From: Candidatus Curtissbacteria bacterium
GTDB lineage: Bacteria > Patescibacteriota > Microgenomatia > Curtissbacterales > GWA2-41-24
Direction: 5' to 3'
DNA: 64,000 nucleotides
Assembly: GCA_016183325.1 (NCBI GenBank)
Contig: JACPEV010000006.1
Coordinates: forward strand, 5,883-69,882
Positions 3,213 to 21,984 of this stretch are shown here, piece after piece. Positions within the stretch are counted from its first letter, which is position 1, and every line of letters starts with the position of its first letter. The notes beneath the pieces are model-generated. The model searched no databases. It had not been told where the DNA came from and was given only the letters and a program-made list of their open reading frames with translations. Position numbers and translations under genes: made by a program.

Positions 3213-4160
3213 CTAAATTTTCCCCGCGCTCCCAAAAACGTCAATTTTCCCCTCAACCACTGCCGTCACCGCCATTACGATATCTGAAGCTAGTTTGTAA
3301 TATGTATATTCATTTGGATTTTCCCCGATTTTTTCGTTTAATGCATCCTTAAACGCTTGTCTTATCTCTGTATTAACATTCACCTTCACGATCCTGCCGA
3401 CTTTTATTGCCTCTCTTATTTGCTCTGCTGGTATCCCCGACCCGCCATGCAAAGAAAGAAAAGTATTCGGGAGCGCTTCTTTTATTTTTTTTAAAAGTTC
3501 AATATCCAGATCAGGCTGGTTAGGAAAAGTCCCATGAATATTCCCAAAAACGCTGGCAAAAATATCAACTCCGGTTTCCGCAACAAACTTTGCCGCGCGC
3601 AGAGGATCAGAATAGGATTTTTTTAATATTTCTAAATCAATTTGCTCGGTATGGACTTCACTCGAGCCGGAAAGTTTATCCAACTCTCCTTCCACAAGCA
3701 GATTTTTTGCGTGTGCCGCCGCAACTACCCTTTTTGTATTCTCGACATTTTGCTCGTACGACAACTCCGATCCGTCAAAGTGGATATCATCAAAACCCAC
3801 AAACGACACCTCCGAGGTGTGAGGAACTTTCACCTCGGAGGTGGAGGAGTTATCAACCGCGAAGTCACCAGACCGCAAGCGAAGTCGAAGGGCCTCCATA
3901 CAATCCTCCACCGTCTTGGCGTGGTCCAAGTTTAAAAGAATCGGAATACCATATTGCTTCCTTGCATTAGCAACTAAATCCACAATATTTTTAAGACCAA
4001 AATATCCGGCTTCGCCGGACGAAAACTCCATCATCACTGGCGATCTTTTTTTCTGTCCGGCTAAACAAATCGCCTTGAAAATCTCAAAGTTATCCACATT
4101 AAAAGCCCCGATGGCAAATCCTTCATTTTGAGCTCTGATGAACCACTCTCTTGCGGTCAT
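3213..4160 (-). CDS. fba: Class II fructose-bisphosphate aldolase. Carries an in-frame palindromic insertion.
   Basis: Class II FBA signatures: N-terminal IRAQNEGFAIGAFN, LNLDHAKT, GELD, LHGGSGIP. The internal segment LRLRLRSGDFAVDNSSTSEVKVPHTSEVS is encoded by the palindromic element at 3807-3895. Confidence 0.85.
   Translation of the reverse strand: MTAREWFIRAQNEGFAIGAFNVDNFEIFKAICLAGQKKRSPVMMEFSSGEAGYFGLKNIVDLVANARKQYGIPILLNLDHAKTVEDCMEALRLRLRSGDFAVDNSSTSEVKVPHTSEVSFVGFDDIHFDGSELSYEQNVENTKRVVAAAHAKNLLVEGELDKLSGSSEVHTEQIDLEILKKSYSDPLRAAKFVAETGVDIFASVFGNIHGTFPNQPDLDIELLKKIKEALPNTFLSLHGGSGIPAEQIREAIKVGRIVKVNVNTEIRQAFKDALNEKIGENPNEYTYYKLASDIVMAVTAVVEGKIDVFGSAGKI
3807..3895. repeat. Palindromic insertion of family P1 lying in frame inside fba. 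It carries two CACCTCCGAGGTG / CACCTCGGAGGTG units and a GCGAAGTCGAAGGGC core.
   Basis: CACCTCCGAGGTG at 3807-3819 and CACCTCGGAGGTG at 3831-3843. Each is near-self-complementary. The same termini occur at 30468-30503 and 40311-40368. Confidence 0.7.
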
Positions 4161-5063: not shown

Positions 5064-5180
5064 ATATTCAGATTACTAGTATATATTGGGCAAGTGCAAA
5101 TTAAAATGAATTATGAAGTAAGAATTAAGAATTAAGTAAGAAAACCATAATTCATTATTCATGATTCTTAATTCAATAAT

Positions 5181-6470
5181 TTAAGTTTCAAGCAATTTCT
5201 TTAAATCGAAATTCAAATCTCCAAGTTTATCTATATGTGGAAAAATGTCAGTTTTACCCTTAACGGCACTCGTTAAAGGTCCGACCTCTGCCGGATCATT
5301 AATCACAGTTGCTCCCACAATTCGCAGCACGTTATCGATCGTTTTGACGAAAATCCTGGTCATCTTTCCAGATTCTACCGATCCCCGGCTGATAACCTCA
5401 TCCGCATATTTAGCATCAGTCACCCCGATAAAAGTGTATGACTTTCCAAAAAAGCTGTCCGAATAAGAAGAAGCAGTCTCAAATATTGTGCGTGCACCCA
5501 CCTTGCCGCCAGTCGCCGCGCAAACCATATTCTTGGCAGCAACCGAACCCTGAGAAGTCGCATTTGCCCAATTTCCCAGCGCGTGCTGTTTGTTGAAAAT
5601 AACATCAAAAAATTCGGCGCAGTCTCCGGCGGCATAGACATCCGGCAAATTGGTCTCCAGATACTCGTTTGTTAAAATCCACCTGTTTATTTTAACTGCG
5701 GAACCGCTAAGCCACAAAATATCTGGTCTTATTCCGATTCCCACAGCAGCTACATCACACTCTAAAGTTTTCCCGCCGCGAGTTAAAACTGCTCCGACCT
5801 TGCCCTCCGAAGCCTCGCCGAAGGAGGGCTCAAATTTCTCGATCTCGTCACCGGTTATTATCTTTACTCCATTTTCCAAAAGTACGTTCGTCAACACCTG
5901 GCTTGAAACATCATCCAGCTTCCCTGCCCAATAATACGGCTCCCTCACTAAAATCGTGATATCAGAAATCCCGTTTGCATAAAAACCGGTCGCGAAGTCT
6001 AAGGAAACAAAACCGCCTCCGATAATAACAGCTTTTTTTGCCTCCGCCGCAACTTTGAGAATTTCATCGGCATCGTCAACTGTGCGAAAATATAAAATGT
6101 TCTCAAGCTCTGATCCATCAACGCTTAGCTCCACCGGAAACCCTCCGATCGCGATCAGCAGCTTTCCGTATTGATATACTTCTCCGCTTGAAACTTTGAC
6201 TCTATGACTCTTTGGTTCTAAATCCTGGGCCTTAGTATTTTTTACAAGTTCAATTTTCTTTTCCTGATACCACTGGGGTTTTTTCAAAAATAATTGTTCT
6301 CTGGTGGACTGTTTGCGAATATAAAAGGGCAAAAGGACTCGTGAGTACTCTTCGTAAGGCTCATCAGTAATAATAGTTATTGAAGCCTCCGGCACCAAAG
6401 ATCTTACTACCTCAGCCGCCGTTGTTCCTGCCGCAGAACCACCTATTATCAAATAATCAACCGATTTCAT
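5181..6470 (-). CDS. FAD-dependent pyridine nucleotide-disulfide oxidoreductase (NADH oxidase / CoA-disulfide reductase-like).
   Basis: GXGXXG FAD motif (DYLIIGGSAAG) and a second Rossmann motif (KAVIIGGGFVSLD). The likely start is the ATG at 6468-6470 (MKSVDYL). The ORF-track extension to 6521 uses a TTG inside the upstream repeat IR-A. Confidence 0.6.
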   Translation of the reverse strand: MKSVDYLIIGGSAAGTTAAEVVRSLVPEASITIITDEPYEEYSRVLLPFYIRKQSTREQLFLKKPQWYQEKKIELVKNTKAQDLEPKSHRVKVSSGEVYQYGKLLIAIGGFPVELSVDGSELENILYFRTVDDADEILKVAAEAKKAVIIGGGFVSLDFATGFYANGISDITILVREPYYWAGKLDDVSSQVLTNVLLENGVKIITGDEIEKFEPSFGEASEGKVGAVLTRGGKTLECDVAAVGIGIRPDILWLSGSAVKINRWILTNEYLETNLPDVYAAGDCAEFFDVIFNKQHALGNWANATSQGSVAAKNMVCAATGGKVGARTIFETASSYSDSFFGKSYTFIGVTDAKYADEVISRGSVESGKMTRIFVKTIDNVLRIVGATVINDPAEVGPLTSAVKGKTDIFPHIDKLGDLNFDLKKLLET

Positions 6471-6690
6471 AAAATTCGAATATCGAATATATGATGTTAA
6501 ATCATATTTTTGATAAATCAAAAAGCGAAATACGAAACAATTCTGTATTCTAGAAAATAGTTTCTAGAAACTGGAAAGCGAAGTTTTGCTTCGCAAAATT
6601 GGAAATGGAAAATTGAGATTGGAAAATAGTTATAATTTATTCTCCATTTTCTATTTTCTACTTTCCTCGTGCTTCGGATTTCGGATTTTA
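6471..6690. repeat. Intergenic repeat IR-A, copy 1 of 3.
   Basis: About 170 bp nearly identical to 8219-8462 and 10446-10685. Shared core: GCGAAAT.CGAAACAA...TATTCTAGAAAATAGTTTCTAGAAACTGGAAA...AATGGAAAATTGAGATTGGAAAATAGTTATAATTTATTCTCCATTTTCTATTTTCTACTTTCC. Confidence 0.8.
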
Positions 6691-7416
6691 CATTGATACT
6701 CCGCTTATTCCAAAGAAGTTCAGCGCTTCTCCAGCCGCATATCCGATCGCTGCCGCCAAAAAACCAATGGTAATTGTCTCAACTACTCTCGTTGTCAGAC
6801 TACCCTTATTGAGCCACCAACGAATTACCCCAATTAACGCCATCACAAAAAGAGAAGTAAATATCGAAGCTATCAGCGCTCGAGGCAGCGGTTGCAATAA
6901 TATAAATGGCAAAAGCGGCGGAATTCCTCCGAAAAGATAAAACAGGCCAATCAAAACTCCTGAAATTTTTGGCGATTCCTCCTTGACTAGTCCTACCTCA
7001 TCCCTCATCATCACGCGCAGCCAAAGCTCGCGGTCGGAAGTTACTTTTTTGGTTAAAGTCTCCACCGTCTGCTTATCAAAACCCATATTCGTATAAATCT
7101 CGCGAATTTCATCTCTCTCAACATCCGGCTTATTCTCCATCTCCCAGCGCTCAATCTTCTCCATCGAGTCATAAAACTCTTTCTGGGATTTAACTGCCAG
7201 ATAATTTCCTAAAGCCATCGAGGCCGCTCCCGCCACGATCGTCAATGTCCCCGCAATAACAACCGTTGATTGGTTAACCATCGTTCCGGAAATTCCCACC
7301 AAAAAACCGATGGCTGTCACTACGCCATCATTGGCCCCAAAAACAATGTCTCTTAAAAAATTTCCGCTTGCCGGATGCTGCGGTTCTCTTCCCGCGATTT
7401 TTTCTCCAGGCCGCAT
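6688..7416 (-). CDS. VIT1/CCC1-family iron/manganese transporter.
   Basis: GANDGVVTAIGFLVGISG motif and an N-terminal cytosolic domain followed by TM helices, typical of the VIT family. Confidence 0.7.
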   Translation of the reverse strand: MRPGEKIAGREPQHPASGNFLRDIVFGANDGVVTAIGFLVGISGTMVNQSTVVIAGTLTIVAGAASMALGNYLAVKSQKEFYDSMEKIERWEMENKPDVERDEIREIYTNMGFDKQTVETLTKKVTSDRELWLRVMMRDEVGLVKEESPKISGVLIGLFYLFGGIPPLLPFILLQPLPRALIASIFTSLFVMALIGVIRWWLNKGSLTTRVVETITIGFLAAAIGYAAGEALNFFGISGVSM

Positions 7417-7536
7417 GCAATAATTCTAGCAGAAAAAAGTTCTAATTAACCTAATTGACCTAATTTCTAAAATTTGAATTTATTAAATTAGAATTTATTT
7501 AGAAATTAGAAATTAGAAATTTCCGACGAAGTCGGG

Positions 7537-7779
7537 CTAGGGATATTCCTGTTCTCCGGTTTCCTCATCAACTAAAATGATCGCCTTTGTTGGGCACGAT
7601 TCGGCCGCCAGTTTGACCACCTCCGGCGGATCCCCCTCGCCTTCCAACACAATCGCCTTATTCTCAGAATCCAGTGCAAATGTCTTCATTGCCAAAGCCA
7701 CACAAGACGCCGCGCCGATGCAAAGATCGCGATCTACTGTTATCTTCCACTTCTTTTTTCCGTTTGTTTGATCAGCCAT
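7537..7779 (-). CDS. Small ferredoxin (4Fe-4S / 3Fe-4S type).
   Basis: 80 aa with Cys ligands CIGAASCV ... ESCP. Confidence 0.6.
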   Translation of the reverse strand: MADQTNGKKKWKITVDRDLCIGAASCVALAMKTFALDSENKAIVLEGEGDPPEVVKLAAESCPTKAIILVDEETGEQEYP

Positions 7780-7795
7780 AAAAAATTTTCAACTT

Positions 7796-8218
7796 TCAAT
7801 TTTCAACTTTCAATTTCCTAATTGCTTCCAGTGCCAAAAAGGCGCACTTCAGTCTGGCCGGTGCCACCGGCCCACCAATTAAACTCAAGACATCTTGCCC
7901 AGTTAACTTACCCACACTTTCTACTGACTTACCGCGAATCTCCTCAGACAATATTGAAGCAGATGCCGTTGATATCGCGCAACCCGAACCGGTAAATGAA
8001 ACATCCCTGATCATCGCGCTTTTGCCCTTAGCAGGGACACCCCCGGGGTGGGCTTTGACTCCCCGGGGGTGGGAAACCCGGGAAATTTTGAAATAAAAAG
8101 TCACTTCATCACCACATAATGGATTGATTTGATTTACAACTAAATCAGCATGACTAATTACACCGTAGTTTTGCGGATTCTGCCAATGCTCCAATATTTC
8201 TTCGCGATAGATATCCAT
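7796..8218 (-). CDS. sufU: SufU/NifU-like Fe-S assembly scaffold. Carries an in-frame palindromic insertion.
   Basis: NPLCGDE, GSGCAIS and LKCA motifs of IscU/SufU. The extra segment SRVSHPRGVKAHPGGVPAKGK is encoded by the palindromic element at 8040-8092. Confidence 0.75.
   Translation of the reverse strand: MDIYREEILEHWQNPQNYGVISHADLVVNQINPLCGDEVTFYFKISRVSHPRGVKAHPGGVPAKGKSAMIRDVSFTGSGCAISTASASILSEEIRGKSVESVGKLTGQDVLSLIGGPVAPARLKCAFLALEAIRKLKVEN
8040..8092. repeat. Palindromic insertion of family P2 (CACCCCCGGGGTG ... CCCCGGGGGTGGG) in frame inside sufU.
   Basis: Near-perfect palindromic 13-mers at 8048-8060 and 8071-8083. The reverse complement of the 17813-17840 segment in trxB matches GCAGGGACACCCCCGGGGTGG here. 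Confidence 0.7.
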
Positions 8219-8462
8219 AATTTAAAAATCCGAATATCGAATAAGATCGTTTTGCTTCGCAAAGGCGAAATTCGAAACAAATCTTATTCTAGAAAGTAGT
8301 TTCTAGAAACTGGAAATTGGTAATGGAAATTTGAGATTGGAGAATAGTTATAATTTATTCTCTATTTACTACTTTCCATTACAATTTTCTCTTTTTCAAG
8401 GAAAAATATGCTCTCATACTTTCCAGTAACTAATTTCTTCATACATGGATTTCGTGCTTCGA
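8219..8462. repeat. Intergenic repeat IR-A, copy 2 of 3. Its 3' part supplies the last codons and stop of sufS.
   Basis: Alignment to copies 1 and 3 as given for 6471-6690. The C-terminal KHEIHV-stop of SufS lies inside the repeat. Confidence 0.8.
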
Positions 8463-9692
8463 ATTTATTTTGAAGGTCTTTTTGACCTTCATCACACCCT
8501 CTACCAACCGATCAATCTCCTCAAAATTGTTATACACATAAGAGGAAGCCCTGGCTGCCGATGAAATTCCCAAAAACTCCATCAAAGGTTGGGCGCAGTG
8601 ATGACCGGAGCGAATAGCTATACCTTCTGAATCAAGAATCGACGCTACATCATGTGCATGAATGTTGCCCACGTTAAAAGAAATTACTCCTCCCCTTTTC
8701 TTGCTATCTTTCTGACCCAATATCCTGATATCCTGAATACCTGATAACCTGCTTATCGCATACTCCGTCAGCTCAATCTCATGCGCTCTGACATTCTCCA
8801 TCCCAATTTTTGAAAGATAATCAACTGCAGCTCCAAGTCCGATTGCTCCGGCAATATTGGGTGTCCCTGCCTCAAATTTCCAAGGTAATTCGTTCCATGT
8901 CGAATTATCAAGTCTAACTTTCGAAATCATTTCTCCGCCAAATAAAAAAGGCGGCATCTCTTCTAAAATCTCTCGTTTCCCCCACAAAACTCCAATCCCC
9001 GTTGGCCCAAGCATCTTATGCCCGGTAAAAACATAAAAATCACAGCCTATTCTTGGGATATCAACCGGCACATGCGGCACTGCCTGAGCGCCATCAATCA
9101 ATATGATGACATTTGACCATTGACCTTTGACAATTGACACTAACTTTTCGACGGGGTTAATGGTACCAAGTACATTAGAAACATGGCAAAACGTAACAAG
9201 TTTGGTCTTCTTGGTTAATGCTTCTTTAAAAGCTTCCTGATCGACTTCGCCATTTTCGTCAATTGGCACGATTTTTAAAACCGCTCCATTTTCCATTGCC
9301 AACTGTTGCCAGACCACAAAATTGGAGTGGTGTTCGGCAACTGTCAAAACAATCTCATCACCTTTTTCGATATTCAATCTCCCCCACGCATAAGCAACCA
9401 AATTAATGGCCTCAGTCGCATTTCTGACAAAAACAATTTCTGATGGATCAGAAACTCCCACAAAATCTGCGACTTTCTTTCTGGCAAGCTCTAATTCTTC
9501 CGTCGCTTCTACAGAAAGCGTATGAATTCCTCTGTGCACATTTGCATTGTGCTTACTGTAATAATGCGATAGCATATCGATAACTTGCTTCGGCTTCTGA
9601 CTCGTCGCCGCATTATCAAGATAAGCTAATAATTTGCCATTAATTTTCCTCTTGAGAATTGGGAAGTCATTTCGAATTTTTTGAATGTTCAT
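8439..9692 (-). CDS. sufS: Cysteine desulfurase, SufS-type (class V aminotransferase).
   Basis: PLP-lysine region TGHKMLGPTGIGVLWG, active-site Cys in RSGHHCAQP, and 417 aa length. Confidence 0.85.
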   Translation of the reverse strand: MNIQKIRNDFPILKRKINGKLLAYLDNAATSQKPKQVIDMLSHYYSKHNANVHRGIHTLSVEATEELELARKKVADFVGVSDPSEIVFVRNATEAINLVAYAWGRLNIEKGDEIVLTVAEHHSNFVVWQQLAMENGAVLKIVPIDENGEVDQEAFKEALTKKTKLVTFCHVSNVLGTINPVEKLVSIVKGQWSNVIILIDGAQAVPHVPVDIPRIGCDFYVFTGHKMLGPTGIGVLWGKREILEEMPPFLFGGEMISKVRLDNSTWNELPWKFEAGTPNIAGAIGLGAAVDYLSKIGMENVRAHEIELTEYAISRLSGIQDIRILGQKDSKKRGGVISFNVGNIHAHDVASILDSEGIAIRSGHHCAQPLMEFLGISSAARASSYVYNNFEEIDRLVEGVMKVKKTFKINSKHEIHV

Positions 9693-9768
9693 CCTCAGCT
9701 AAGAAACACATCCGATGTGCTCTCTTGACGTAAACAGGACTTCACATCGGATGTGAAGCGAAGCTACT

Positions 9769-10140
9769 TCAACTTCTTCGTAAACTCGTTGGATTGTCAT
9801 TATTCAGCCAAAGAACATCTTTATTTGCCCAGTCCCCTTCTTTTGGGATAATTGAACGCTGATCTCCACCAGCTTCTTTATAATCAACCAAATCGTAACT
9901 TTCTTGTAAAAATTTTTTGGGATTTACATCACTGTTTTCATGCCCTTTTCTGGCTGCACCGGCTTTCCTTTTTAACAAATACCAAGCATTCTTTTCAGGT
10001 CCCAAAATTTGTCTTACAATAATGCCTCCTCCCATCTCCGCTGCACTAAGTCCCCGGGATACTTCAAGGTCTGGGGTTTCGTCAACCGCTCTCCAAAGAT
10101 TTTCTTCCAAATGCGATTTTTCTCTTTCGTTTGAACTCAT
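9769..10140 (-). CDS. Hypothetical protein embedded in the suf operon.
   Basis: 123-aa ORF with a 4-nt ATGA overlap with the upstream Rieske gene. No motif recognised. Confidence 0.4.
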   Translation of the reverse strand: MSSNEREKSHLEENLWRAVDETPDLEVSRGLSAAEMGGGIIVRQILGPEKNAWYLLKRKAGAARKGHENSDVNPKKFLQESYDLVDYKEAGGDQRSIIPKEGDWANKDVLWLNNDNPTSLRRS

Positions 10141-10445
10141 GCCTCAACAAAAACCTCATCTCCCTCAACATTCACTTTGTAGATTTTTAGCGGTTCAGCC
10201 GCGGGAGGCAAAACGTTTGCGCCGGTTTTGATGTTAAATTGTGAACCGTGACATGTACATTCCACCACATCTCCATGCATCATATGGTTTTGGTCAAGCT
10301 CACACATCTCATGAGTGCAAATATTGGTTGTGGCATAGATTTTTCCTTCGACTTTATATAAAGCCACAGGCTCTCCATCAACCATCACCTTTTTTATCCC
10401 GGCTTCGGGAATTTCATTAACTTTTGCAACTTTAAGCTTAGCCAT
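10137..10445 (-). CDS. Rieske [2Fe-2S] domain protein.
   Basis: CTHEMC ... CTCHGSQF Rieske ligand boxes. Likely start is MAKLKVAKV at 10445. The upstream extension in the ORF track runs into repeat IR-A. Confidence 0.65.
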   Translation of the reverse strand: MAKLKVAKVNEIPEAGIKKVMVDGEPVALYKVEGKIYATTNICTHEMCELDQNHMMHGDVVECTCHGSQFNIKTGANVLPPAAEPLKIYKVNVEGDEVFVEA

Positions 10446-10685
10446 AAGTTTATAAATTCGAATAAGATCGTTTTGCTTCGCAAAAGCGAAATTCGAAACT
10501 CGAAACAATTTTGTATTCTAGAAAATAGTTTCTAGAAACTGGAAATTGGAAATGGAAAATTGAGATTGGAAAATAGTTATAATTTATTCTCCATTTTCTA
10601 TTTTCTACTTTCCATTACAATTTTCTAATTTCCAGTAACTAATTTCTTTATGCACTAATTTCGTGCTTCGGATTTCGAATTTTTT
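10446..10685. repeat. Intergenic repeat IR-A, copy 3 of 3. It overlaps the last codons of sufD.
   Basis: Alignment as given for 6471-6690. The SufD C-terminal KHEISA-stop is encoded inside the repeat. Confidence 0.8.
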
Positions 10686-11184
10686 CCAATATTGGACTCA
10701 CAAATCCCTCTACCAGCATTCTTTCAGCTTCCTTTCGGCTCAGCCCCCTACTCATCAAATAAAACAACATCTGCTCATCAACTTTTCCAATTGTCGCCGC
10801 GTGGCCGGCCTTAACATCCTGCTCCAAAATCTCCAGTGCCGGCGTGTCGTCTCCCATTTTGGCCTCATCGAACAAAAGCGCATCGGATCTCAAGTACGCA
10901 TCCGCCCCCTTTGCCCCTTTTTCAATCTTCACATTTCCCCGAAAAGCAAAAGTCGACCTGTCGCGCAAAACACTTTTCACTTTGACTTCTGACTTCGTGC
11001 GTGGTGCCGCGTGAGTAATGTAAATCTCCAATGCCTTATTCTCATCTCCCCTACCTAACGCAAGTCCAACTATCTCCACCCTCGCATTCTCCCCTGCCAA
11101 AACCACCTCAACTTTCTCTTCTCCATTTTCCAAAAGCAGAGGGATAAATTCGGTCTTATTCGACAAAACAACAATTTGCTTCAT
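10648..11184 (-). CDS. sufD: SufD-like Fe-S assembly protein (short SufBD-family beta-helix protein).
   Basis: Homology to the C-terminal beta-helix region of SufB/SufD (GENARVEIVGLALG, AATIGKVDEQMLFYLMSRGL). ATG at 11182-11184 is preceded by GGAGT. Confidence 0.65.
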   Translation of the reverse strand: MKQIVVLSNKTEFIPLLLENGEEKVEVVLAGENARVEIVGLALGRGDENKALEIYITHAAPRTKSEVKVKSVLRDRSTFAFRGNVKIEKGAKGADAYLRSDALLFDEAKMGDDTPALEILEQDVKAGHAATIGKVDEQMLFYLMSRGLSRKEAERMLVEGFVSPILEKIRNPKHEISA

Positions 11185-11294: not shown

Positions 11295-11728
11295 ATATGA
11301 ACTGTTTGTTTAATTGTTTTTGACATAGGATATCGCAACTGTTAAATTCGTCCTATGCTTTCAAAGCCTTGGCTAAAAGCGCTATCAGCTTTATCTGTAA
11401 ACATATCAGCTGTATGGTTTGGTCTTGCTGTAATTACTCCTAACTTTACTAGCTTAAATAGCCTAGAAGCAATCTCAACATTGATCAAAGACGTAATTTT
11501 TGGTATAGTTTTTCTACAAATCAGTGTAAAAATTGAGGAAATATTAGAAAAATGAACGATTTTCTTAATATTAGTACGAATGTTCAAATTTCTACGGCCT
11601 TGGTTCTGATCGTTCTGCTTTTGCTCTACATTGCGTTCAAGCTCTCCAATAAACCCCGCAGGCGATAAATTAACTTCCTCCGGCTTTGCATTTATATGAA
11701 CTGTTTGTTTAATTGTTTTCATTGACAT
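11295..11728. repeat. Pair of 30-bp direct repeats (ATATGAACTGTTTGTTTAATTGTTTT) flanking a ~370-bp insert between sufD and sufB.
   Basis: Identical 26-30-mers at 11297-11326 and 11694-11723. The repeat encodes the first 11 codons (MSxKTIKQTVHI) of the 128-aa minus-strand ORF 11342-11728. A truncated second copy of that start lies at 11333. Confidence 0.6.
11342..11728 (-). CDS. Hypothetical protein inside the direct-repeat-bounded insert.
   Basis: 128-aa ORF with no recognisable motif. Its start region is duplicated at 11300-11333. Confidence 0.3.
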   Translation of the reverse strand: MSMKTIKQTVHINAKPEEVNLSPAGFIGELERNVEQKQNDQNQGRRNLNIRTNIKKIVHFSNISSIFTLICRKTIPKITSLINVEIASRLFKLVKLGVITARPNHTADMFTDKADSAFSQGFESIGRI

Positions 11729-11827: not shown

Positions 11828-14800
11828 TCATCCTACCGCCCCTATCATTTCCAACTGAATTAACCTATTCAACTCAACTGCATACTCGAGTGGTAATTCC
11901 TTAACAATCGGTTCAATGAAACCGTTGACAATCAAAGAAGTTGCTTCCATCTCTGTTAAACCCCGACTCATCAGATAAAACAATTGTGCCGCATCAATCC
12001 TGGAAACCGCTGCCTCATGCCCGATTCGCACATTATCTTCATTAACCTGCATCGTCGGATAAGTATCGCTTCTTGATTTCTCATCCAAAATCAACGCATC
12101 ACATCTCACATTACACTTAACCCTTTCTGCATTTTTAATCACTTTAACCAACCCACGATACGAGGTCCGGCCTCCAAACGCACTAACAGATTTTGAAATA
12201 ATCTCGCCGCTTGTATCCGGTGCCAAAAACATCAGTTTTCCGCCGGCATCCTGATGTTGCCCTGCCCCGGCGTAAGCTAGGGACAAAACCTCTCCTCTTG
12301 CCCCTCTTCCAACCAAATAACAGCTCGGATATTTCATCGTAATTTTACTGTTATGAACCACTATGCCATTCGCAATAAAATTCGCAGTTTTATCTACCTC
12401 AATATCATAGACTCGCAATCTACCTATGGGTTCAATCGAGCGAACTCTGGTAAATCTCAAGGTCGGATCGAACTCTTTTTTTTCTATTATTCTCTCCAAA
12501 TTACCTCTAATGTTCATAGATAAATAATGAGACGTGTACTCAATTAATCTCCCTTTATATAGTTTTCGTTCCTTTGTGTAGGTTGTGATTTTTAATGGAT
12601 CCAAACCAACCGACATCATCAATAACTTTAAACTTTCGAGTAGATTTTTATTTGCGCTCGCAAAAACTATTTGACCATATTGATTTCCATCTTTTTTGAT
12701 CGCCTTTCTTAAGTAACCATCAGCATCAAAGTACCCCTCAATAAATGCCAGCTTCTCTCTTCTTGAAAGGCTAAATATCCAATTAGGAATTTTTTTCGTT
12801 TTAGCTGTACCCGAAAAACCCAAATCTAAAAATAACTTAGCCAAAGCTGTTGAATTAACTGTCAGAGAGATACCCTTAGGAGTAAACGGAATATCAAAAA
12901 CAAACTTTAGAAGTTTTTCTAGCTTTTTGCGCGCATGATCATTTGGTGGTACTGCAAAATAAATTCTTCGAACAACTCCCGAAAATGAACGATCCATACA
13001 GCCATCACCCAAGTATAGACCCAACAGCCACATCAGCTCTTCAGAAGTCTTATTAGGAATTGTTGGTTTGTGCTTTAAAAGATGTTGATCATAACTAAAA
13101 TTGATTTCATATGGTTTTCCATCATCTGGAAGTTCGTTAACGATAGCAATCCAATCACCTACTTTTAAATTTTCCAGTTTTTCCCATCTCAAGGTCACCA
13201 AACCAATGTTAGAAGTTTTTCTCAAAACCAGAAATGGATGATTAGCTGTTGCCTCAATTTCTCGATAGTTGGTGGTTAAAACTTTAAATACCGGCTTTAC
13301 GCCCTGATCAACGACTGCATTTACCTTGCTTTTTGCTGCTTTAAGAGTATTCAAATCTGTAGTATAAATCCAATCGCCGGCTTTTAAATCTTTAATACTG
13401 ACTGGCCCTTCTGGATTAGTAAAAAGCTTTGCATTTTCCGTTAAACATCCGATATTAGCATCCACCCACTCCATCGTCCCTTCTTCCTCAACAAATGCCC
13501 GCTTTGTCACCAGGTTATAAACATTACTTGACCAATTTTGAATTGTGGTATATCGACAGCGCGCTCCGCGCTTAACAAAAATCTCCACCACCGCCGCATG
13601 CAAAGAATCTGTTGTATAAACCGGGGCGGTGCAATTGTGCGAAATGACACCTTCAGCGACATATGATTCATCTTCTTCGACACTAAAGTTGTAAACACTA
13701 GTATTCAATTCTTCTACCTTAATTGATTTAATAGGAAGATAAATATAGTTTTCATCCATAAAAAATGGCGATCCTTCTTTGCGCCCGTTTAGCACGTCTT
13801 TTTGAACAATTTGGCCAAAAAAGACATTAGATGTACGCGAAATAATGACAGTGTACATAATTTGCCTGGGCATTACCCTCTTATGTAGATTAATTGAAGC
13901 GACTACCCCAATTTTCAATAATGCATCGCGAAACCCATATGCTAATTGTCTAGTAACTGAATTGTATCTAAATAAATTCGCTTTTTTGTCATAGCTTCCA
14001 TCGCCCCTCCATAACCCTTTGATCAATTCGCCCAAGTGCGACTTAGGACTTTCCAGCATCCATGCGGATATGTGTTTCGTCCTATTTGTAGAACCAAATT
14101 CTCTACGAAAAAATCTCGCAGCAAGGGTTGAACAAATTGTAATAGTCTGCCCATTGTTTCTTATTTTTCCCTCTATAACTTCTTTTCCAAAATAAAGAGT
14201 CAATAAACTTTTTACATCTTTTAAATATTCTTTTTCTTTTATGTTGAAAGTAAAAGTCAAGTAATGATCTTTATCAACGTGCCCTTCTGAAAGATAGTAG
14301 CCCACCAGACGATAAAAATCAGGATCGAGTGTTAGCTTAAGACTTTTTTGTGTTACATGAATGCCATTTCCAAAAGGAATTTGGAGATCTATATTCGGTT
14401 TAAAGTTATAAATAAATGGTTTCTCCAAATTCAAAGGAACAGTCTTAATCGTATCCGTTTCTACAATCTCTTTCTCTGTTTCTTTTCTTTGAATTGGAAA
14501 AACCAAATAATCACCTAATTCCACTTTGTCAGCCCTGATCCACTCAGGTGAGAAATATGTGTTTCTATACTCCTTTTTTTCTCTTTTGCAAACAAAAAGA
14601 GGGTGCTCTTCCGTTACTTTTAAAACAGCATCACTGTCACCGTAATACTTAATAGAAAAAATCTTGCCCTTGTATTGACGTTTCATGGTATTGTAAACGC
14701 GTCTATATCTTCCTTTATGAGTTAATACATTGTCTCCAACTTCAATATCCTCAATTAGTTTCTCTCCCTGATCAGTCTTCACTCTTGCACCTGCAATGAA

Positions 14801-15493
14801 ACAGCCTTCGACGTAATGTACATACGCACCCTCATCAACAATAATTAAAGTCCTCTCAAACTGCCCCATGTTGGCGGCATTAATCCTAAAATATGCTTGT
14901 AGTGGAATATCAACAGAAACTCCTGGAGGCACATAAACAAAAGACCCGCCAGACCAAACGGCAGAGTTTAGGGAAGCAAATTTATTATCCGCGGGGGGAA
15001 TAGATCGACCGAAGTATTGTTTTACCAGATCCGGATATTTTCGAAGCCCACTATCCATATCCAAAAATATCACGCCCATATCTTCCCACTGCTTCTTAAA
15101 AGAGTGATAGACACTCTCGGAATCATATTGAGTTGTCACACCCGCCAAAAACTTTTTTTCTGCTTCGGGAATACCAATCGCGTCGTAAGTATCACGAATG
15201 TCTTTTGGTAATTCCTCCCACGATTTCGCCTGCTTATCAATCGGTTTTATGTAGTAGTAAATATTGTCAAAGTCAATTGTCGAAAGATCAGCTCCCCACG
15301 TTGGCATCTTCTTAGACGCGAAAATCGCTAAAGATCGAAGACGAAATTCCCTCATCCACTCCGGCTCACTCTTCATTCCGCTAATCTGCTCCACCACGGA
15401 CTTATCCAGTCCTTTCTGGCTCTTAAACACATAATTTTCCGGCTTTGAGAAACCGTATTTGTAATCGTTTGGAACGATTAATCCATTCGCCAT
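11828..15493 (-). CDS. sufB: Fe-S cluster assembly protein SufB interrupted by two inteins. The 1221-aa precursor gives a spliced SufB of about 465 aa.
   Basis: Extein segments match SufB: N-terminal 230 aa ending in YVHYVEG; CTAPVYTTDSLHAAVVEIFV...NWSSNVYNLVTKRA...MEWVDANIG; SKITMKYPSCYLVGRGARGEVLSLAYAGAGQHQDAG through the C-terminus. The two insertions have the intein signatures C...HN + C/S. Confidence 0.9.
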   Translation of the reverse strand: MANGLIVPNDYKYGFSKPENYVFKSQKGLDKSVVEQISGMKSEPEWMREFRLRSLAIFASKKMPTWGADLSTIDFDNIYYYIKPIDKQAKSWEELPKDIRDTYDAIGIPEAEKKFLAGVTTQYDSESVYHSFKKQWEDMGVIFLDMDSGLRKYPDLVKQYFGRSIPPADNKFASLNSAVWSGGSFVYVPPGVSVDIPLQAYFRINAANMGQFERTLIIVDEGAYVHYVEGCFIAGARVKTDQGEKLIEDIEVGDNVLTHKGRYRRVYNTMKRQYKGKIFSIKYYGDSDAVLKVTEEHPLFVCKREKKEYRNTYFSPEWIRADKVELGDYLVFPIQRKETEKEIVETDTIKTVPLNLEKPFIYNFKPNIDLQIPFGNGIHVTQKSLKLTLDPDFYRLVGYYLSEGHVDKDHYLTFTFNIKEKEYLKDVKSLLTLYFGKEVIEGKIRNNGQTITICSTLAARFFRREFGSTNRTKHISAWMLESPKSHLGELIKGLWRGDGSYDKKANLFRYNSVTRQLAYGFRDALLKIGVVASINLHKRVMPRQIMYTVIISRTSNVFFGQIVQKDVLNGRKEGSPFFMDENYIYLPIKSIKVEELNTSVYNFSVEEDESYVAEGVISHNCTAPVYTTDSLHAAVVEIFVKRGARCRYTTIQNWSSNVYNLVTKRAFVEEEGTMEWVDANIGCLTENAKLFTNPEGPVSIKDLKAGDWIYTTDLNTLKAAKSKVNAVVDQGVKPVFKVLTTNYREIEATANHPFLVLRKTSNIGLVTLRWEKLENLKVGDWIAIVNELPDDGKPYEINFSYDQHLLKHKPTIPNKTSEELMWLLGLYLGDGCMDRSFSGVVRRIYFAVPPNDHARKKLEKLLKFVFDIPFTPKGISLTVNSTALAKLFLDLGFSGTAKTKKIPNWIFSLSRREKLAFIEGYFDADGYLRKAIKKDGNQYGQIVFASANKNLLESLKLLMMSVGLDPLKITTYTKERKLYKGRLIEYTSHYLSMNIRGNLERIIEKKEFDPTLRFTRVRSIEPIGRLRVYDIEVDKTANFIANGIVVHNSKITMKYPSCYLVGRGARGEVLSLAYAGAGQHQDAGGKLMFLAPDTSGEIISKSVSAFGGRTSYRGLVKVIKNAERVKCNVRCDALILDEKSRSDTYPTMQVNEDNVRIGHEAAVSRIDAAQLFYLMSRGLTEMEATSLIVNGFIEPIVKELPLEYAVELNRLIQLEMIGAVG
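12350..13447 (-). mobile_element. Intein 2 of SufB (366 aa) with a LAGLIDADG homing-endonuclease domain.
   Basis: Begins CLTENAKLF after NIG and ends IVVHN followed by SKITMKYPS. LAGLIDADG motifs LLGLYLGDGCM and IEGYFDADGYL. Cys at 13445-13447, terminal Asn at 12350-12352. Confidence 0.85.
13634..14803 (-). mobile_element. Intein 1 of SufB (390 aa) with a LAGLIDADG homing-endonuclease domain.
   Basis: Begins with Cys (CFIAGARVKTD) right after YVEG and ends VISHN followed by CTAP. LAGLIDADG-type motifs LVGYYLSEGHV and LIKGLWRGDGSY. Boundaries were verified by codon counting (Cys 14801-14803, Asn 13634-13636). Confidence 0.85.
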
Positions 15494-15496
15494 CTT

Positions 15497-15775
15497 CTTT
15501 TATTGTTCGAGTGAAATCGAGAACAACAAGCTTGTCTTATTGTTCGAGTGAAATCGAGAACTTACCATTCCTCAAATTGTCATCCTGAACTTGTTTCAGG
15601 ATCTTATGGTAACTTCTCGACTCGCTTCGCTCGCTCGAAGAATATTACTCCATTTTGCCGACAACTTCCTATTTGTCATTCTGGCTTGTCCAGAATCTGC
15701 TTACTTGTCATTCTCGACTCGATCGAGAATCTGGATCCTGAATTGAATTCAGGATGACAAGACGACTAAGTTCCC
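15497..15775. repeat. Cluster of short hairpin/MITE-like units between sufB and sufC. Includes a tandem 24-mer and GTCATCCTGAA/TTCAGGATGAC and GTCATTCTGG/CTTGTCCAGAATC units.
   Basis: TATTGTTCGAGTGAAATCGAGAAC duplicated in tandem (15501-15560). Inverted repeats GTCATCCTGAAC..TTCAGGATC, GTCATTCTGGCTTGTCCAGAATC, GTCATTCTCGACTCGATCGAGAATC, GGATCCTGAATTGAATTCAGGATGAC. Confidence 0.7.
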
Positions 15776-17072: not shown

Positions 17073-17459
17073 TTAACGATTTGCCAAATCAGCTACCGTT
17101 TTCCTCCCAATTGTCTCCTCAAGCTGTTTTTTGACATCTTCCCACATATCCCCAGCTCCACAAACACATTCGTGATCATCCTCAAAACATTTCCCTTCAA
17201 CAATTTCCCCGTCTAAAATCTTCAAAACATCCAAAAGCTTAATTTCATCAGCTGATTTGGCAAGCTTATATCCCCCAGTTACACCTTCCTTAGAAGAAAT
17301 GATGCCAGCATTTTTAAGATCATTTGCAATCTGAGAAAGAAATTTGGCAGAAATTTTATTTTTCTTGGCAATCGAGGAAACTGAAACCAATTTCTTGGAG
17401 TTAGATAAATTTGATAAAAGTATCAATCCGTAATCAGCTTTTTGAGATAATCTGAACAT
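17073..17459 (-). CDS. Rrf2-family transcriptional regulator (IscR/SufR-like), head of the suf operon.
   Basis: Rrf2 wHTH N-terminus (MFRLSQKADYGLILLSNL ... SVSSIAKKNKISAKFLSQIANDL) and a C-terminal Cys cluster CFEDDHECVCG that fits Fe-S ligation. Confidence 0.75.
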   Translation of the reverse strand: MFRLSQKADYGLILLSNLSNSKKLVSVSSIAKKNKISAKFLSQIANDLKNAGIISSKEGVTGGYKLAKSADEIKLLDVLKILDGEIVEGKCFEDDHECVCGAGDMWEDVKKQLEETIGRKTVADLANR

Positions 17460-17638
17460 TGTAAATTATTGTTCGAGCTTGTCGAGAACCTACCGCTAAA
17501 ATTACTATAATAATAGTTTTTTAAGGTAACTTCTCGACTCTCCGGCTCGCCGGATCGCTCGAAGAATAATATTCTAACTGCTACTTATTTAGTGGAAGTT
17601 TAATAGGAATTTAGCAATAAGTCAAGCCAATCAAAACC

Positions 17639-19489: not shown

Positions 19490-19612
19490 CAGTTAATCGT
19501 AGATCGTTAATCGTTAATCGCCATAAACGAAAAACGATAAACAATAAACGAATTTTTAAAACAGAAGCCCTTCGCGTTTGACGAGGGCTTTTGTTTTAGG
19601 TAGGGTATCTCT

Positions 19613-21679: not shown

Positions 21680-21842
21680 AAGCTCTCTTCTTTAACTGCA
21701 AATTTTAACCCAATATAACTTTTAAGGCAAATTCGAATCTGATTTACTCAGTTCGAATTTGCTTCTCCTCTAAGGAGGGAAATATTAAGGTCTGATCTAA
21801 AAGATCGACCCGTAGGGGGGAACCTTGGTGCCCCTTAAAGTG

Positions 21843-21877: not shown

Positions 21878-21984
21878 AATACCGGCCAGTATTCTTAACT
21901 GAAAGGGCTAGACCTAAATTAAATTTAGGTCTACTTCCATATTTGCAGAAGTTAGAAGAACTGTCAATACTCACACTTTTTTAC

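What the first reader, a model, noticed from the sequence alone, without database searches (positions are those of the whole stretch)
6471..10685. A ~170-bp element repeated three times inside the suf locus, donating terminal codons and 5' regions to flanking genes
Copies at 6471-6690, 8219-8462 and 10446-10685 share more than 85% identity over a core. The core contains the direct/palindromic motif TTCTAGAAAATAGTTTCTAGAA, a GCGAAG..CTTCGC hairpin, a perfect TATAAT and the A/T-rich tail TTTCTATTTTCTACTTTCC. Each copy lies directly upstream of a minus-strand gene (the FAD oxidoreductase, sufU, the Rieske gene). Each also overlaps the last 6-8 codons and stop of the preceding gene (VIT1, sufS, sufD). 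sufS and sufD therefore end ...KHEI(H/S)x-stop encoded by the repeat. The element could be a promoter/operator module, for example for the Rrf2 regulator at 17073-17459. Alternatively it could be a mobile element that re-terminates genes on insertion.
Basis: seen in the sequence. Interest (0 to 1): 0.6.

Follow-up and report, generated by a model that had tools for sequence, protein, structure and literature searches.

The report
Foldback repeat inserted thrice in suf operon
A 215-245 bp non-coding, hairpin-forming repeat has been inserted between genes at three places in the iron-sulfur (suf) operon of a Candidatus Curtissbacteria genome, adding short tails to two proteins and separating genes that abut or overlap in relatives; it looks like a small mobile or copy-pasted spacer, not a binding site for the nearby Rrf2 regulator.

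Summary
The repeat is real. Three same-orientation copies (6471-6689, 8219-8466, 10446-10683) are 91-96.5% identical, and profile and pattern searches find no other copy in the 64 kb window. Each copy is an AT-rich imperfect palindrome built from inverted heptamer arrays. It folds far better than shuffled sequence on both strands, has TTCGAA-containing inverted ends and encodes nothing.

Relatives with 79% identical SufS have compact operons: SufD overlaps Rieske, and SufS abuts SufU. The three 200-220 nt spacers are therefore insertions. They add NSKHEIHV to SufS and RNPKHEISA to SufD. The VIT1 C-terminus is native, contrary to the finding. The Rieske gene's Shine-Dalgarno site is gone.

The Rrf2 gene has its own promoter and palindromic site, conserved in four genomes and unlike TTCTAGAA. 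The scan found no standard promoter running toward the downstream genes inside the element and no terminator there, and Rfam has no match.

The core occurs nowhere else in the collections searched. Only the ends recur, at the sufS-sufU junction of three distant relatives.

Best reading: a lineage-specific MITE-like foldback repeat, probably transcribed with the operon as an intercistronic hairpin. Mobility, genome-wide copy number and any promoter or operator role remain unproven. Interest is moderate to low.

The parts
6471..6689 (-). Copy 1 of the foldback repeat, between the VIT1 stop (6688-6690) and the FAD-oxidoreductase ATG (6468-6470). Relative to copy 3 it lacks 47 nt of the left arm and carries a relocated 21-nt GCGAAG hairpin.
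8219..8466 (-). Copy 2, between SufS and SufU. It is probably the oldest copy, because related end sequences occupy the same junction in L024, L033 and L034.
10446..10683 (-). Copy 3, between SufD and the Rieske gene. It gives the most complete hairpin (-63.9 kcal/mol, z = -7.1).
6548..6569 (.). TTCTAGAA-N6-TTCTAGAA double palindrome in copy 1 (right arm only)
8287..8308 (.). TTCTAGAA-N6-TTCTAGAA double palindrome in copy 2
10516..10537 (.). TTCTAGAA-N6-TTCTAGAA double palindrome in copy 3
6613..6644 (-). Near-invariant centre GAGAATAAATTATAACTATTTTCCAATCTCAA (apex of the hairpin; reads TATAAT on the plus strand), copy 1
8331..8362 (-). Same near-invariant centre, copy 2 (1 mismatch)
10560..10591 (-). 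Same near-invariant centre, copy 3
8439..8465 (-). Element-encoded SufS tail NSKHEIHV plus stop codon. The canonical SufS end is ..FKI or ..FKIK.
10648..10677 (-). Element-encoded SufD tail RNPKHEISA plus stop codon. SufD homology with orthologues ends at ..P-I-L-E-K-I.
17576..17625 (-). Context, not part of the element: the conserved Rrf2 promoter TTGACT-17-TAAACT and the palindrome AAACTTCCACTAAATAAGTAGCAGTT, the likelier Rrf2 operator.

Best explanation
**What it is.** The element is a lineage-specific, non-coding, AT-rich foldback repeat of 215-245 bp. It is MITE-like. It is built from inverted heptamer arrays (GGAAAAT-type on one arm, ATTTTCC-type on the other) with inverted ends AAAT[T/C]CGAA...TTCG[A/G]ATTT.

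**History.** The suf operon was ancestrally compact, with overlapping or abutting genes. The repeat has been inserted at three cistron junctions, all in one orientation. The sufS-sufU copy is probably the oldest. The sufD-Rieske and VIT1-FAD copies are younger duplicates (96.5% identical to each other).

**Shown.**
- The three copies exist and form foldbacks.
- All three junctions are empty in relatives.
- The SufS (+8 aa) and SufD (+9 aa) tails are encoded by the element.
- The Rieske Shine-Dalgarno site and the stop/start coupling at sufS-sufU are lost.
- The scan finds no canonical promoter running toward the downstream genes and no terminator in the element, Rfam has no match, and there is no resemblance to the Rrf2 site.

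**Inferred mechanism (about 40% for this functional part).**
- The element is transcribed through as part of the suf mRNA.
- There it forms a hairpin with arms of roughly 100 nt between cistrons.
- The hairpin uncouples translation of neighbouring genes.
- It probably acts as a 3' stabiliser or an RNase III-type processing site, dividing the transcript into segments.
- The short, largely unstructured AU-rich stretch at or after its 3' end lets ribosomes start at the next ATG without a Shine-Dalgarno site.

How the copies spread is unknown. A transposase acting in trans, or recombination at the TTCGAA-rich ends, are both possible.
For: **Repeat statistics.**

**Foldback.**
- MFE is -57 to -64 kcal/mol with z = -5.1 to -7.1, and the result is equal on both strands.
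- Each copy also matches the profile in reverse orientation (E 1e-8 to 1e-19).

**No coding capacity.** Stops occur in five of six frames, and the one long open frame has no start codon.

**Insertions.**
- L028 and L032 (SufS 79% identical) have SufD overlapping Rieske. L028 carries AAGGAGGTGAGTT before the Rieske ATG.
- In the same two loci SufS abuts SufU as TGATG or TAAATG.
- L030 has 4 nt between VIT1 and FAD-OR.

**Tails.**
- 58 of 120 SufS orthologues end within 2 residues of ..FKI.
- SufD homology stops at ..EKI.

**Ends conserved, core variable.** L024, L033 and L034 share AAATTCGAAATCCGAAxCACGAAATCC ... TATTCGATATTCGAATTTT at sufS-sufU but lack the core. This pattern is typical of MITE families.

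**Scattered distribution.** The matching NSKH/NPKHE tail class is scattered over the SufS tree.

**Other repeats at the same junctions.** Other palindromic repeat families occupy these junctions in other genomes, and some sit in-frame inside ORFs.

**Precedents.** MITEs that are AT-rich, under 500 bp, intergenic and form stem-loops, and the 235-bp Chunjie element inserted within an operon, are described in PMC10969869. Correia elements, with promoters at their ends and RNase III processing, are described in PMC2649163.
Against: - All three copies lie within 4.2 kb. There are none in the other 60 kb of the window.
- The 22-nt TTCTAGAA motif was scanned against GTDB representative genomes and JGI metagenome contigs, and the 32-nt central block against IMG/VR. 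None of these, nor the whole-element searches of phages and plasmids, found the core.
- No predicted protein among 5.8 billion contains any translated frame of the element. A dispersed MITE should usually leave such traces.
- Target-site duplications are not convincing. TAAATT is exact only at copy 2.
- No transposase was found among about 40 window ORFs.
- The right arm, carrying TTCTAGAA x2, is better conserved than the left arm. All copies share one orientation. Related ends sit only at suf junctions in the relatives sampled. All three points hint at a locus-specific function.
- Six family members show no covariation, so structure is not shown to be selected at the RNA level.
- There are no transcript data.
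Confidence: 0.55

Rival explanations
1. Portable promoter/operator cassette. Each copy would start transcription of the downstream unit (Rieske-x-sufS; sufU-fdx; FAD-OR...) from the TAGAAT inside TTCTAGAAT. The TTCTAGAA-N6-TTCTAGAA palindrome would bind an unidentified regulator, so that three sub-operons are co-regulated.
For: - All copies face the same way and end 0-8 nt before a start codon.
- The right arm containing the palindrome is the best-conserved part. It is identical between copies 1 and 3 apart from one 21-nt insertion.
- TAGAAT is a -10 hexamer that this genome uses elsewhere: TGCTAGAAT before VIT1 and TGTTAGAAT at 23322.
- The insertions removed the Rieske Shine-Dalgarno site and the stop/start coupling, so some replacement for expression is needed.
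- Near-identical 24-bp palindromes occur as multi-copy spacer motifs in unrelated metagenome contigs, as operators do.
- Correia and other MITEs do carry promoters (PMC10969869, PMC2649163).
Against: - The scan finds no -35/-10 pair running toward the downstream genes inside any copy.
- TAGAAT lacks the TG extension. The best -35-like hexamer, TTTCCA, lies at 19 nt.
- No consistent leaderless-type promoter sits next to the three ATGs.
- No candidate regulator is encoded nearby.
- The two half-sites are 14 bp apart centre to centre, which is off one helical turn.
Confidence: 0.2
2. The element is the operator array of the adjacent Rrf2-family regulator (17073-17459).
For: The regulator is encoded in the same locus, and Rrf2 regulators such as IscR control Fe-S assembly genes in other bacteria (general knowledge). 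The motif is palindromic.
Against: - The Rrf2 gene's own upstream region holds a different palindrome overlapping TTGACT-17-TAAACT, conserved in four genomes.
- TTCTAGAA is absent upstream of Rrf2, sufC and sufB.
- Relatives keep the Rrf2 gene but lack the TTCTAGAA core altogether.
Confidence: 0.03
3. A conserved, suf-specific cis-acting spacer (RNA or DNA) belongs natively to the sufS-sufU junction of some Microgenomates. In this genome it was expanded and copied to two more junctions. It would not be a transposable element at all.
For: - End sequences are 80-96% conserved at the same junction in L024, L033 and L034, whose SufS is only 68-74% identical. That is far beyond neutral expectation.
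- In every locus sampled, the end motif GAAATCCGAA occurs only in suf loci. One exception, a single match in L030, is by chance and lies in coding-like sequence between sufB and sufD.
- There are no copies in 51 kb of non-suf sequence in the window.
Against: - Relatives closer to this genome (79-84% SufS identity) have no spacer or an unrelated one.
- The tail class marking this family is polyphyletic on the SufS tree.
- The conserved parts are the ends while the middle varies, which is the opposite of most regulatory elements.
- There are no compensatory changes and no Rfam family.
- The sampled loci were chosen through SufS, so the apparent suf association is biased.
Confidence: 0.15
4. The repeat is an assembly or binning artefact, or a chance low-complexity resemblance.
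For: The source is a metagenome-assembled genome, and the sequence is AT-rich with heptamer arrays that could align spuriously.
Against: - The copies differ by specific substitutions and indels.
- Shuffles give 0 expected matches.
- An independent assembly (L002) reproduces parts of copies 2 and 3 at 100% identity and breaks inside them, as expected for true repeats.
- The flanking ORFs stay intact.
Confidence: 0.02

Closest known systems
Prokaryotic MITEs inserted in operons, e.g. Chunjie of Geobacter uraniireducens (235 bp; PMC10969869, citing Chen et al. 2008)
   Same: - Size near 200-250 bp, AT-rich and non-coding.
- Inverted ends and stable stem-loop transcripts.
- Sits between genes of an operon without destroying the flanking ORFs.
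- Copies vary in size through internal indels.
   Different: - No clear target-site duplication.
- Only three copies are known, all in one operon. Chunjie has dozens of dispersed copies.
- No partner transposase has been seen.
- The body is made of inverted heptamer arrays.
Correia repeat-enclosed elements (CREE) of Neisseria (PMC2649163)
   Same: - A foldback element found next to gene starts and ends.
- It can change neighbouring gene expression. CREE transcripts form hairpins that RNase III cleaves, which is the same mechanism inferred here.
   Different: - No sequence similarity.
- The CREE features (26-bp TIRs, TA duplication, IHF site, promoters created at the ends) are either not found here or not testable.
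- CREE is present in hundreds of dispersed copies.
ERIC/IRU and REP/BIME/REPIN intergenic palindromes of Proteobacteria (PMC3116915, PMC8266576; ERIC properties from general knowledge)
   Same: - Imperfect palindromes located in transcribed spacers inside operons.
- They are thought to act on mRNA stability.
- Mosaic, modular structure.
   Different: - Unrelated sequence.
- No RAYT (TnpA-REP) gene was seen in the window.
- Much lower copy number in the sequence accessible here.
- Longer than a REP.
Mycobacterial MIRUs and Rickettsia palindromic elements (RPE) (RPE: PMC10969869; MIRU: general knowledge)
   Same: - Repeats that interact with reading frames.
- MIRUs sit between operon genes and overlap their stop and start codons.
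- RPEs add peptide segments to host proteins, as this element adds tails to SufS and SufD.
   Different: - MIRUs are direct tandem units with small ORFs that maintain translational coupling. This element breaks coupling and has no ORF.
- RPEs insert inside ORFs in frame. This element only captures the 3' ends of ORFs.
STRR heptanucleotide repeats of heterocystous cyanobacteria (general knowledge; no paper retrieved)
   Same: Intergenic arrays of tandem 7-nt units. This genome is full of such arrays, and both arms of the element are built from them.
   Different: STRRs are simple direct arrays. They are not an inverted pair with unique core and end sequences copied as one unit.

Membership tests
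Prokaryotic MITE (criteria as listed in PMC10969869) | Length under about 500 bp and no coding capacity | tested here: met
   The copies are 219-248 bp. Stops occur in five of six frames, and the one open frame has no start codon.
Prokaryotic MITE (criteria as listed in PMC10969869) | Terminal inverted repeats of about 4-30 bp | tested here: met
   The ends AAAT[T/C]CGAA and TTCG[A/G]ATTT occur in all copies and pair in the predicted folds. They are short and A/T-rich, so this is weak evidence on its own.
Prokaryotic MITE (criteria as listed in PMC10969869) | Flanking direct repeats (target-site duplication) | tested here: inconclusive
   TAAATT is exact at copy 2. Copies 1 and 3 have only approximate A/T-rich repeats, which chance could produce in this sequence.
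Prokaryotic MITE (criteria as listed in PMC10969869) | AT-rich, sits in intergenic sites, transcript forms a stable stem-loop | tested here: met
   GC content is 26-28% against about 41% for the window. z = -5 to -7.
Prokaryotic MITE (criteria as listed in PMC10969869) | Evidence of insertion: empty orthologous sites | tested here: met
   L028, L032 and L030 have overlapping or abutting genes at all three junctions.
Prokaryotic MITE (criteria as listed in PMC10969869) | Many copies dispersed around the genome | tested here: inconclusive
   Only three copies are known, all within 4.2 kb. None lie in the other 60 kb of the window or in any collection searched. The rest of this MAG could not be read.
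Prokaryotic MITE (criteria as listed in PMC10969869) | Related autonomous IS or transposase with matching ends | tested here: inconclusive
   No transposase domain was found in about 40 window ORFs. The rest of the genome is not available.
Operator of the adjacent Rrf2 regulator | The same motif lies upstream of the autoregulated Rrf2/suf promoter and is conserved in relatives | tested here: not met
   The conserved site upstream of Rrf2 is AAACT[A/T]C[C/T]ACTAA..TAGT.G.AGTT. TTCTAGAA is absent there and absent from relatives.
Sigma-70-type promoter | -35 and -10 hexamers 16-18 nt apart, or an extended -10 (TGnTAnnnT), oriented toward the downstream gene | tested here: not met
   The scan lists no site running toward the downstream genes inside any copy. 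A minus-strand match at 6713-6685 lies in the VIT1 3' end and only reaches the edge of copy 1, and two plus-strand matches at the copy-1/FAD-gene boundary (6446-6475, 6466-6495) point the other way. TAGAAT is preceded by TTC rather than TGn. A sequence-only test cannot exclude a weak or unusual promoter.
Intrinsic terminator | GC-rich stem followed by a T-run | tested here: not met
   No terminator-like site was found inside the copies. Classical terminators do exist elsewhere in the window, for example at 21850-21885.
Any curated RNA family (Rfam 15) | Covariance-model match | tested here: not met
   There are no gathering-threshold hits in the window. In 5-18 kb at E<=1 the only hit is a spurious one at 12790-12934, outside the element.
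Correia (CREE) element | 26-bp TIR, TA duplication, IHF site, end-generated promoters, RNase III cleavage | not testable with these tools
   No reference CREE sequence was compared here. The functional features need experiments. A TA flank is seen at copies 1 and 2 only.
REP/REPIN | Short REP hairpin pairs plus a RAYT gene in the genome | tested here: inconclusive
   No Y1 transposase was found among the scanned ORFs. Small REP-like hairpins of other families are present in the locus.

The most novel reading that the evidence does not exclude
The element could be a self-contained operon-splitting cassette rather than selfish DNA. In this reading a foldback ends or stabilises the upstream message, and a regulator-bound TTCTAGAA double palindrome with a weak promoter restarts the downstream one. 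The cassette would derive from a spacer native to the sufS-sufU junction of Microgenomates. In this lineage it would have been copied to two further junctions, converting one compact suf operon into co-regulated sub-operons. More broadly, families of small palindromic repeats would be remodelling gene junctions and protein C-termini across candidate-phyla-radiation genomes: 55 of 120 SufS orthologues carry such tails.
Probability: 0.15. Interest if true: 0.55.

Novelty: new member of a known kind. Interest (0 to 1): 0.33.

Why it matters
This is a clean, sequence-level case of how a minimal, tightly packed operon in a reduced CPR genome is pulled apart by repeat insertion. Stop codons are displaced, so proteins gain tails. 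Translational coupling and a Shine-Dalgarno site are lost. Long hairpins are placed between cistrons of an essential pathway.

My two full-text searches for MITE-type elements or leaderless promoters in CPR/Patescibacteria retrieved one paper, which is about other elements. The wider pattern seen here may deserve its own study: many repeat families recur at the same junctions, and some sit in-frame inside ORFs.

For annotation, the result warns that C-terminal extensions of CPR proteins are often translated repeat DNA. If the cassette reading were true, it would show a simple route to new regulatory architecture in genomes with few regulators.

Tried and rejected
**Public DNA collections.**
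- The TTCTAGAA-N6-TTCTAGAA motif was scanned against genome contigs and metagenome contigs. It returned only unrelated palindromes with no element core and no suf neighbours.
- An IMG/VR scan with the central block gave nothing.
- Plasmid and phage collections gave one chance 44-nt match and nothing else.

**Translated-frame searches for extra copies in called ORFs.**
- The 54-aa open frame gave no hit.
- A composite of all six-frame segments gave no hit.
- HMMER against 1.84 billion representatives returned one low-complexity hit, P0121, from a different GC-richer heptamer foldback.

**Extending the contig beyond the window.** The end protein is not on record.

**Known RNA families and signals.**
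- Rfam gave nothing at gathering and E-value thresholds.
- The promoter/terminator scan found no terminator-like site and no promoter-like site running toward the downstream genes inside the copies; the only promoter-like matches touching copy 1 point the other way or lie at its edge.

**Structure conservation.** RNAalifold on six family members found no covariation.

**Target-site duplication.** Reconstruction against empty sites was ambiguous.

**Transposase search.** Four Pfam scans of about 40 window ORFs found none.

**Ideas considered by eye and dropped (no tool test run).**
- Fur/PerR-like box at the centre (wrong spacing).
- Sigma-54 promoter.
- CodY box.
- Iterons.
- Integron attC.
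- Replication origin. The GC skew is monotonic.

**Apparent extra copies.**
- The L030 match to the end motif lies in coding-like sequence and is a chance match.
- The L001 Bacteroidetes hits show only an analogous heptamer foldback, not homology.

Full report

Yes, in its main points.
- Reading 6300-10900, the repeat finder and a MAFFT alignment of the three spacers on the gene strand show three copies of one unit. They lie at about 6471-6689, 8219-8466 and 10446-10683, all in the same orientation.
- Global pairwise alignments give 96.5% identity for copies 1 and 3, 92% for copies 2 and 3, and 91% for copies 1 and 2. The copies also differ by several indels.
- The 22-nt TTCTAGAA-N6-TTCTAGAA motif and the 32-nt central block GAGAATAAATTATAACTATTYTCCAATCTCAA each occur exactly three times in 64 kb. 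Shuffles give an expectation of 0.00.
- A profile HMM of the three copies, run with all filters off, finds only these three in the window (E 1e-47 to 1e-75). The next window hit has E = 1.7.
- An independent Logan assembly of run SRR12113420 gives a 2,230-bp contig (L002). It starts inside copy 3, ends inside copy 2, and is 100% identical to both. The repeat is therefore not an assembly artefact.

**2. Corrections to the finding**
- The unit is 215-245 bp, not about 170 bp.
- The perfect TATAAT lies on the plus strand, antisense to all the genes.
- The GCGAAG/CTTCGC hairpin is near the right end in copies 2 and 3. In copy 1 it appears as a 21-nt insertion in the right arm.
- SufS and SufD do end in element-encoded residues: NSKHEIHV* and RNPKHEISA*.
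- VIT1 does not. It ends ...FFGISGVSM*, exactly where orthologue L030 ends (...FFGISGVLI*). The element begins within or after its stop codon.
- Pfam confirms the gene identities: SufBD core, Rieske, VIT1, Pyr_redox_2, ferredoxin and Rrf2.

**3. Anatomy**
- Each copy folds into one long imperfect hairpin or a closed multibranch in which the two ends pair. MFE is -57 to -64 kcal/mol and z = -5.1 to -7.1.
- Copy 3 folds equally well on either strand (-63.9 and -64.8 kcal/mol). This is a DNA palindrome, not a strand-specific RNA fold.
- Each copy also matches the profile in reverse orientation.
- The arms are arrays of 7-nt units: GAAATTG/GGAAAAT-type on one arm and TATTTTC-type on the other. They surround the near-invariant centre.
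- The ends are AAAT[T/C]CGAA and TTCG[A/G]ATTT.
- The right arm carries the TTCTAGAA double palindrome and is the best-conserved part. The left arm carries a 47-nt deletion in copy 1 and a 27-nt insertion in copy 2.
- No frame encodes a plausible protein.
- GC content is 26-28%, against about 41% for the window.

**4. Source organism and comparison with relatives**

The SufS protein is identical to a GenBank protein of a Candidatus Curtissbacteria bacterium (CPR/Patescibacteria) on a 73,071-bp contig. I fetched the suf loci of twelve relatives through their SufS proteins.

Gene order is conserved: TrxB-like, Rrf2, SufC, SufB, SufD, Rieske, SufS, SufU, ferredoxin, VIT1, FAD oxidoreductase, RpiB.

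Two relatives with 79% identical SufS (L028, L032) have a fully compact operon:
- SufD overlaps the Rieske gene. In L028 the Rieske gene has a strong Shine-Dalgarno site, AAGGAGGTGAGTT-ATG.
- SufS and SufU share TGATG or TAAATG.

L030 has 4 nt between VIT1 and the FAD oxidoreductase.

The three 200-220-nt spacers in the window are therefore insertions. Their consequences can be read directly:
- The SufS and SufD stop codons were displaced into the element.
- Stop/start coupling at sufS-sufU was lost.
- The Rieske Shine-Dalgarno site was replaced by TTCGAATTTATAAACTT-ATG.

**5. How unusual are the tails?**
- Among 120 SufS orthologues, 58 end within two residues of the conserved ...FKI. Another 55 carry non-homologous tails of 5-43 residues.
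- The tails fall into recurrent classes: NSKH/NPKHEARNPKQ, VGKW..HPIIL, TTNAKRLK, ILRANxVSREV, VIARN..LRFA and others.
- The classes are scattered over a SufS neighbour-joining tree rather than forming clades.
- At the DNA level they are translations of different small palindromic repeats sitting at the sufS 3' junction.
- Some of these repeat families also sit at the SufD 3' end of other genomes, and in-frame inside ORFs.
- Junction colonisation by palindromic repeats is thus common in this clade. The present element is one instance.

**6. Relatives of this particular element**
- None of the fetched loci contains the core: heptamer arms, centre and TTCTAGAA motif (blastn; nhmmer).
- Three distant relatives (L024, L033, L034; SufS 68-74% identical) have a 130-170-nt foldback at the sufS-sufU junction with the same ends. 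The left end is AAATTCGAAATCCGAA[A/G][C/T]ACGAAATCC... and the right end is ...GTTTCGA...TATTCGATATTCGAATTTT, followed by 5-9 nt and the sufU ATG.
- Conserved ends with a variable middle is the classic pattern of MITE families. It could also mean the ends have a function at this junction.
- RNAalifold found no compensatory changes.
- In the window, copy 2 occupies this orthologous junction. Copies 1 and 3 are nearly identical to each other. Copy 2 is therefore probably the source lineage and the other two are recent duplicates.

**7. Tests of the regulatory interpretation**

The Rrf2 gene has a recognisable promoter, TTGACT-17-TAAACT. It is followed by a palindrome conserved in the window and in L023, L024 and L025 (for example AAACTACTAGTTTCAAACTAGTAGTT in L024, AAACTTCCACTAAATAAGTAGCAGTT here). 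This is the likelier Rrf2 autoregulatory site, and it bears no resemblance to TTCTAGAA. TTCTAGAA does not occur upstream of Rrf2, sufC or sufB.

Promoter evidence inside the element is weak:
- The consensus scan lists no promoter-like site running toward the downstream genes inside any copy. A minus-strand match at 6713-6685 lies in the VIT1 3' end and only reaches the edge of copy 1. Two plus-strand matches at the copy-1/FAD-gene boundary (6446-6475, 6466-6495) point away from the genes. No terminator-like site is listed in the copies.
- Many genes in this genome start 6-8 nt after an extended -10, for example TGCTAGAAT-TATTGC-ATG for VIT1, and some have a canonical -35.
- The element's TAGAAT is preceded by TTC, not TGn. 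Its best -35-like hexamer is 19 nt away.
- The sequences next to the three ATGs share no leaderless-type promoter.

Rfam has no match. A promoter or operator role is therefore unsupported, but sequence alone cannot exclude it. Three points keep it alive as the main rival: the conserved right arm, the uniform orientation, and the need to express genes that lost their coupling.

**8. Tests of the mobile-element interpretation**

| MITE criterion | Result | Calls |
|---|---|---|
| Size, AT-richness, no coding capacity | Met | 29, 53, 57 |
| Inverted ends, stem-loop | Met | 4, 12, 13, 45, 46 |
| Empty sites in relatives | Met | 33, 35, 63, 65 |
| Target-site duplication | Ambiguous (TAAATT exact only at copy 2) | 35 |
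| Transposase | None among about 40 ORFs | 47, 48, 66, 67 |
| Dispersed copies | None seen | see below |

Evidence on dispersal:
- All three copies lie within 4.2 kb, with none in the remaining 60 kb of the window.
- Exact-pattern scans of GTDB genomes and JGI metagenomes (the TTCTAGAA motif) and of IMG/VR (the central block) did not find the core.
- BLAST against plasmids and phages gave nothing meaningful.
- No predicted protein in the 5.8-billion-sequence collection contains any translated frame of the element. The HMMER search of 1.84 billion representatives gave only a low-complexity hit.
- The other contigs of this MAG could not be read, so genome-wide copy number is unknown.

**9. Verdict**

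The most likely explanation (confidence about 0.55 overall) is a lineage-specific MITE-like foldback repeat that spread to three junctions of a once-compact suf operon.

Shown: the identity as an inserted repeat, the protein tails, and the loss of coupling and of the Shine-Dalgarno site.

Inferred: the element is co-transcribed and acts as an intercistronic hairpin, either a stability barrier or an RNase III-type processing site. The AU-rich, largely unstructured stretch that follows would allow Shine-Dalgarno-independent initiation.

Rival explanations:
- Promoter/operator cassette: about 0.2.
- Native suf-specific cis-element that was triplicated: about 0.15.
- Rrf2 operator: about 0.03.
- Artefact: about 0.02.

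The closest known systems are operon-inserted MITEs such as Chunjie, and Correia elements (PMC10969869, PMC2649163). ERIC/REP-type palindromes, MIRU and RPE are functional analogues. I class the element as a new member of a known kind. It is of moderate to low interest in itself. It points to a wider, apparently undescribed pattern of repeat-driven remodelling of gene junctions in CPR genomes.

Noticed in passing
window 11828-15493 (-): SufB is 1221 aa here, against 465-466 aa in L025, L030 and L033 and 853-862 aa in L023 and L024. The L023 and L024 versions carry Hint/intein and LAGLIDADG hits. The window gene appears to hold two inteins.
   Followed up: partly
window 17526-17567 and about 15600-15643 (-); also L025 9390-9425 and 11330-11375, L030 about 4000-4030, L031 about 1440: A second, smaller palindromic repeat family: ATTCTTCGAGCGA-(GC hairpin)-GAGTCGAGAAGTTAC. 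In the window it sits between the Rrf2 promoter and the Rrf2 ATG, and in the sufC-sufB spacer. In other genomes it sits at SufD or SufS 3' ends and is translated as ...ILRANEVSREV tails.
   Followed up: partly
window 15500-15580 and 17466-17490 (-): The motif GTTCTCGA-N-CTCGAACAATAA lies 5-7 nt upstream of the ATG of both sufB and Rrf2. At sufB it forms a 37-nt tandem duplication. Similar motifs occur in the suf loci of L024, L025 and L030. It may be a real suf cis-element.
   Followed up: partly
window-wide, e.g. 552-582, 5108-5181, 7499-7521, 7784-7817, 19492-19552, 34014-40; inside ORFs at 9107-9139 (sufS), 16613-16644 (sufC), 27591-27623 (transketolase): Tandem arrays of 7-nt (sometimes 8-nt) units are very frequent in spacers, often as inverted pairs. 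They also occur inside coding sequence. The sufS array causes no length change relative to orthologues; the other two were not compared. This resembles cyanobacterial STRR repeats.
   Followed up: partly
window about 8020-8095 (-), within sufU; L023 3346-3404 and 11516-11574: SufU carries a GC-rich palindromic in-frame insert (…SHPRGVKAHPGGVPAKG…), so it is 140 aa against 118-123 aa in L028, L025 and L030. In L023 an 88% identical 59-nt repeat sits inside both the Rrf2 and SufU ORFs. This behaviour is like Rickettsia palindromic elements.
   Followed up: partly
window 50067-51304 vs 56322-59026; also 45450-45564 vs 57083-57197 and 53140-53485 vs 58066-58339: Several 75-300-nt blocks are duplicated at 89-99% identity in a region encoding polysaccharide deacetylase, NUDIX and unknown proteins. 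This suggests a segmental duplication or rearrangement.
   Followed up: no
window, e.g. upstream of 7416 (VIT1), 23322, 50162, 53099, 55448: Many genes start 6-9 nt downstream of an extended -10 box (TGnTAnnnT) and have no Shine-Dalgarno site. This suggests widespread leaderless or near-leaderless mRNAs. A minority of genes have strong GGAGG sites (39193, 62260).
   Followed up: partly
P0001-P0120 (SufS orthologues): 55 of 120 orthologues carry non-homologous C-terminal tails of 5-43 residues. The tails fall into recurrent classes scattered over the SufS tree. Some orthologues also have repeat-derived in-frame inserts, for example P0025 and P0030.
   Followed up: yes
window 21680-21984: A 305-nt spacer with four or five strong hairpins, including a classical bidirectional terminator (z = -5.2 in the tool's dinucleotide-shuffle test). 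It has no Rfam match and could hold an unannotated small RNA.
   Followed up: partly
L010, L013, L021, L003 (JGI sample Ga0315911): Unrelated low-GC metagenome contigs carry the perfect 24-bp palindrome ATTCTAGAAAGTACTTTCTAGAAT, flanked within single spacers by further copies or near-copies. The arrangement looks like an operator array for an unknown regulator.
   Followed up: no
window 11342-11728 (-) and 9769-10140 (-): Two ORFs inside the suf locus (128 aa and 123 aa) have no Pfam hit. Unannotated ORFs of similar size occupy the first of these positions in relatives.
   Followed up: partly
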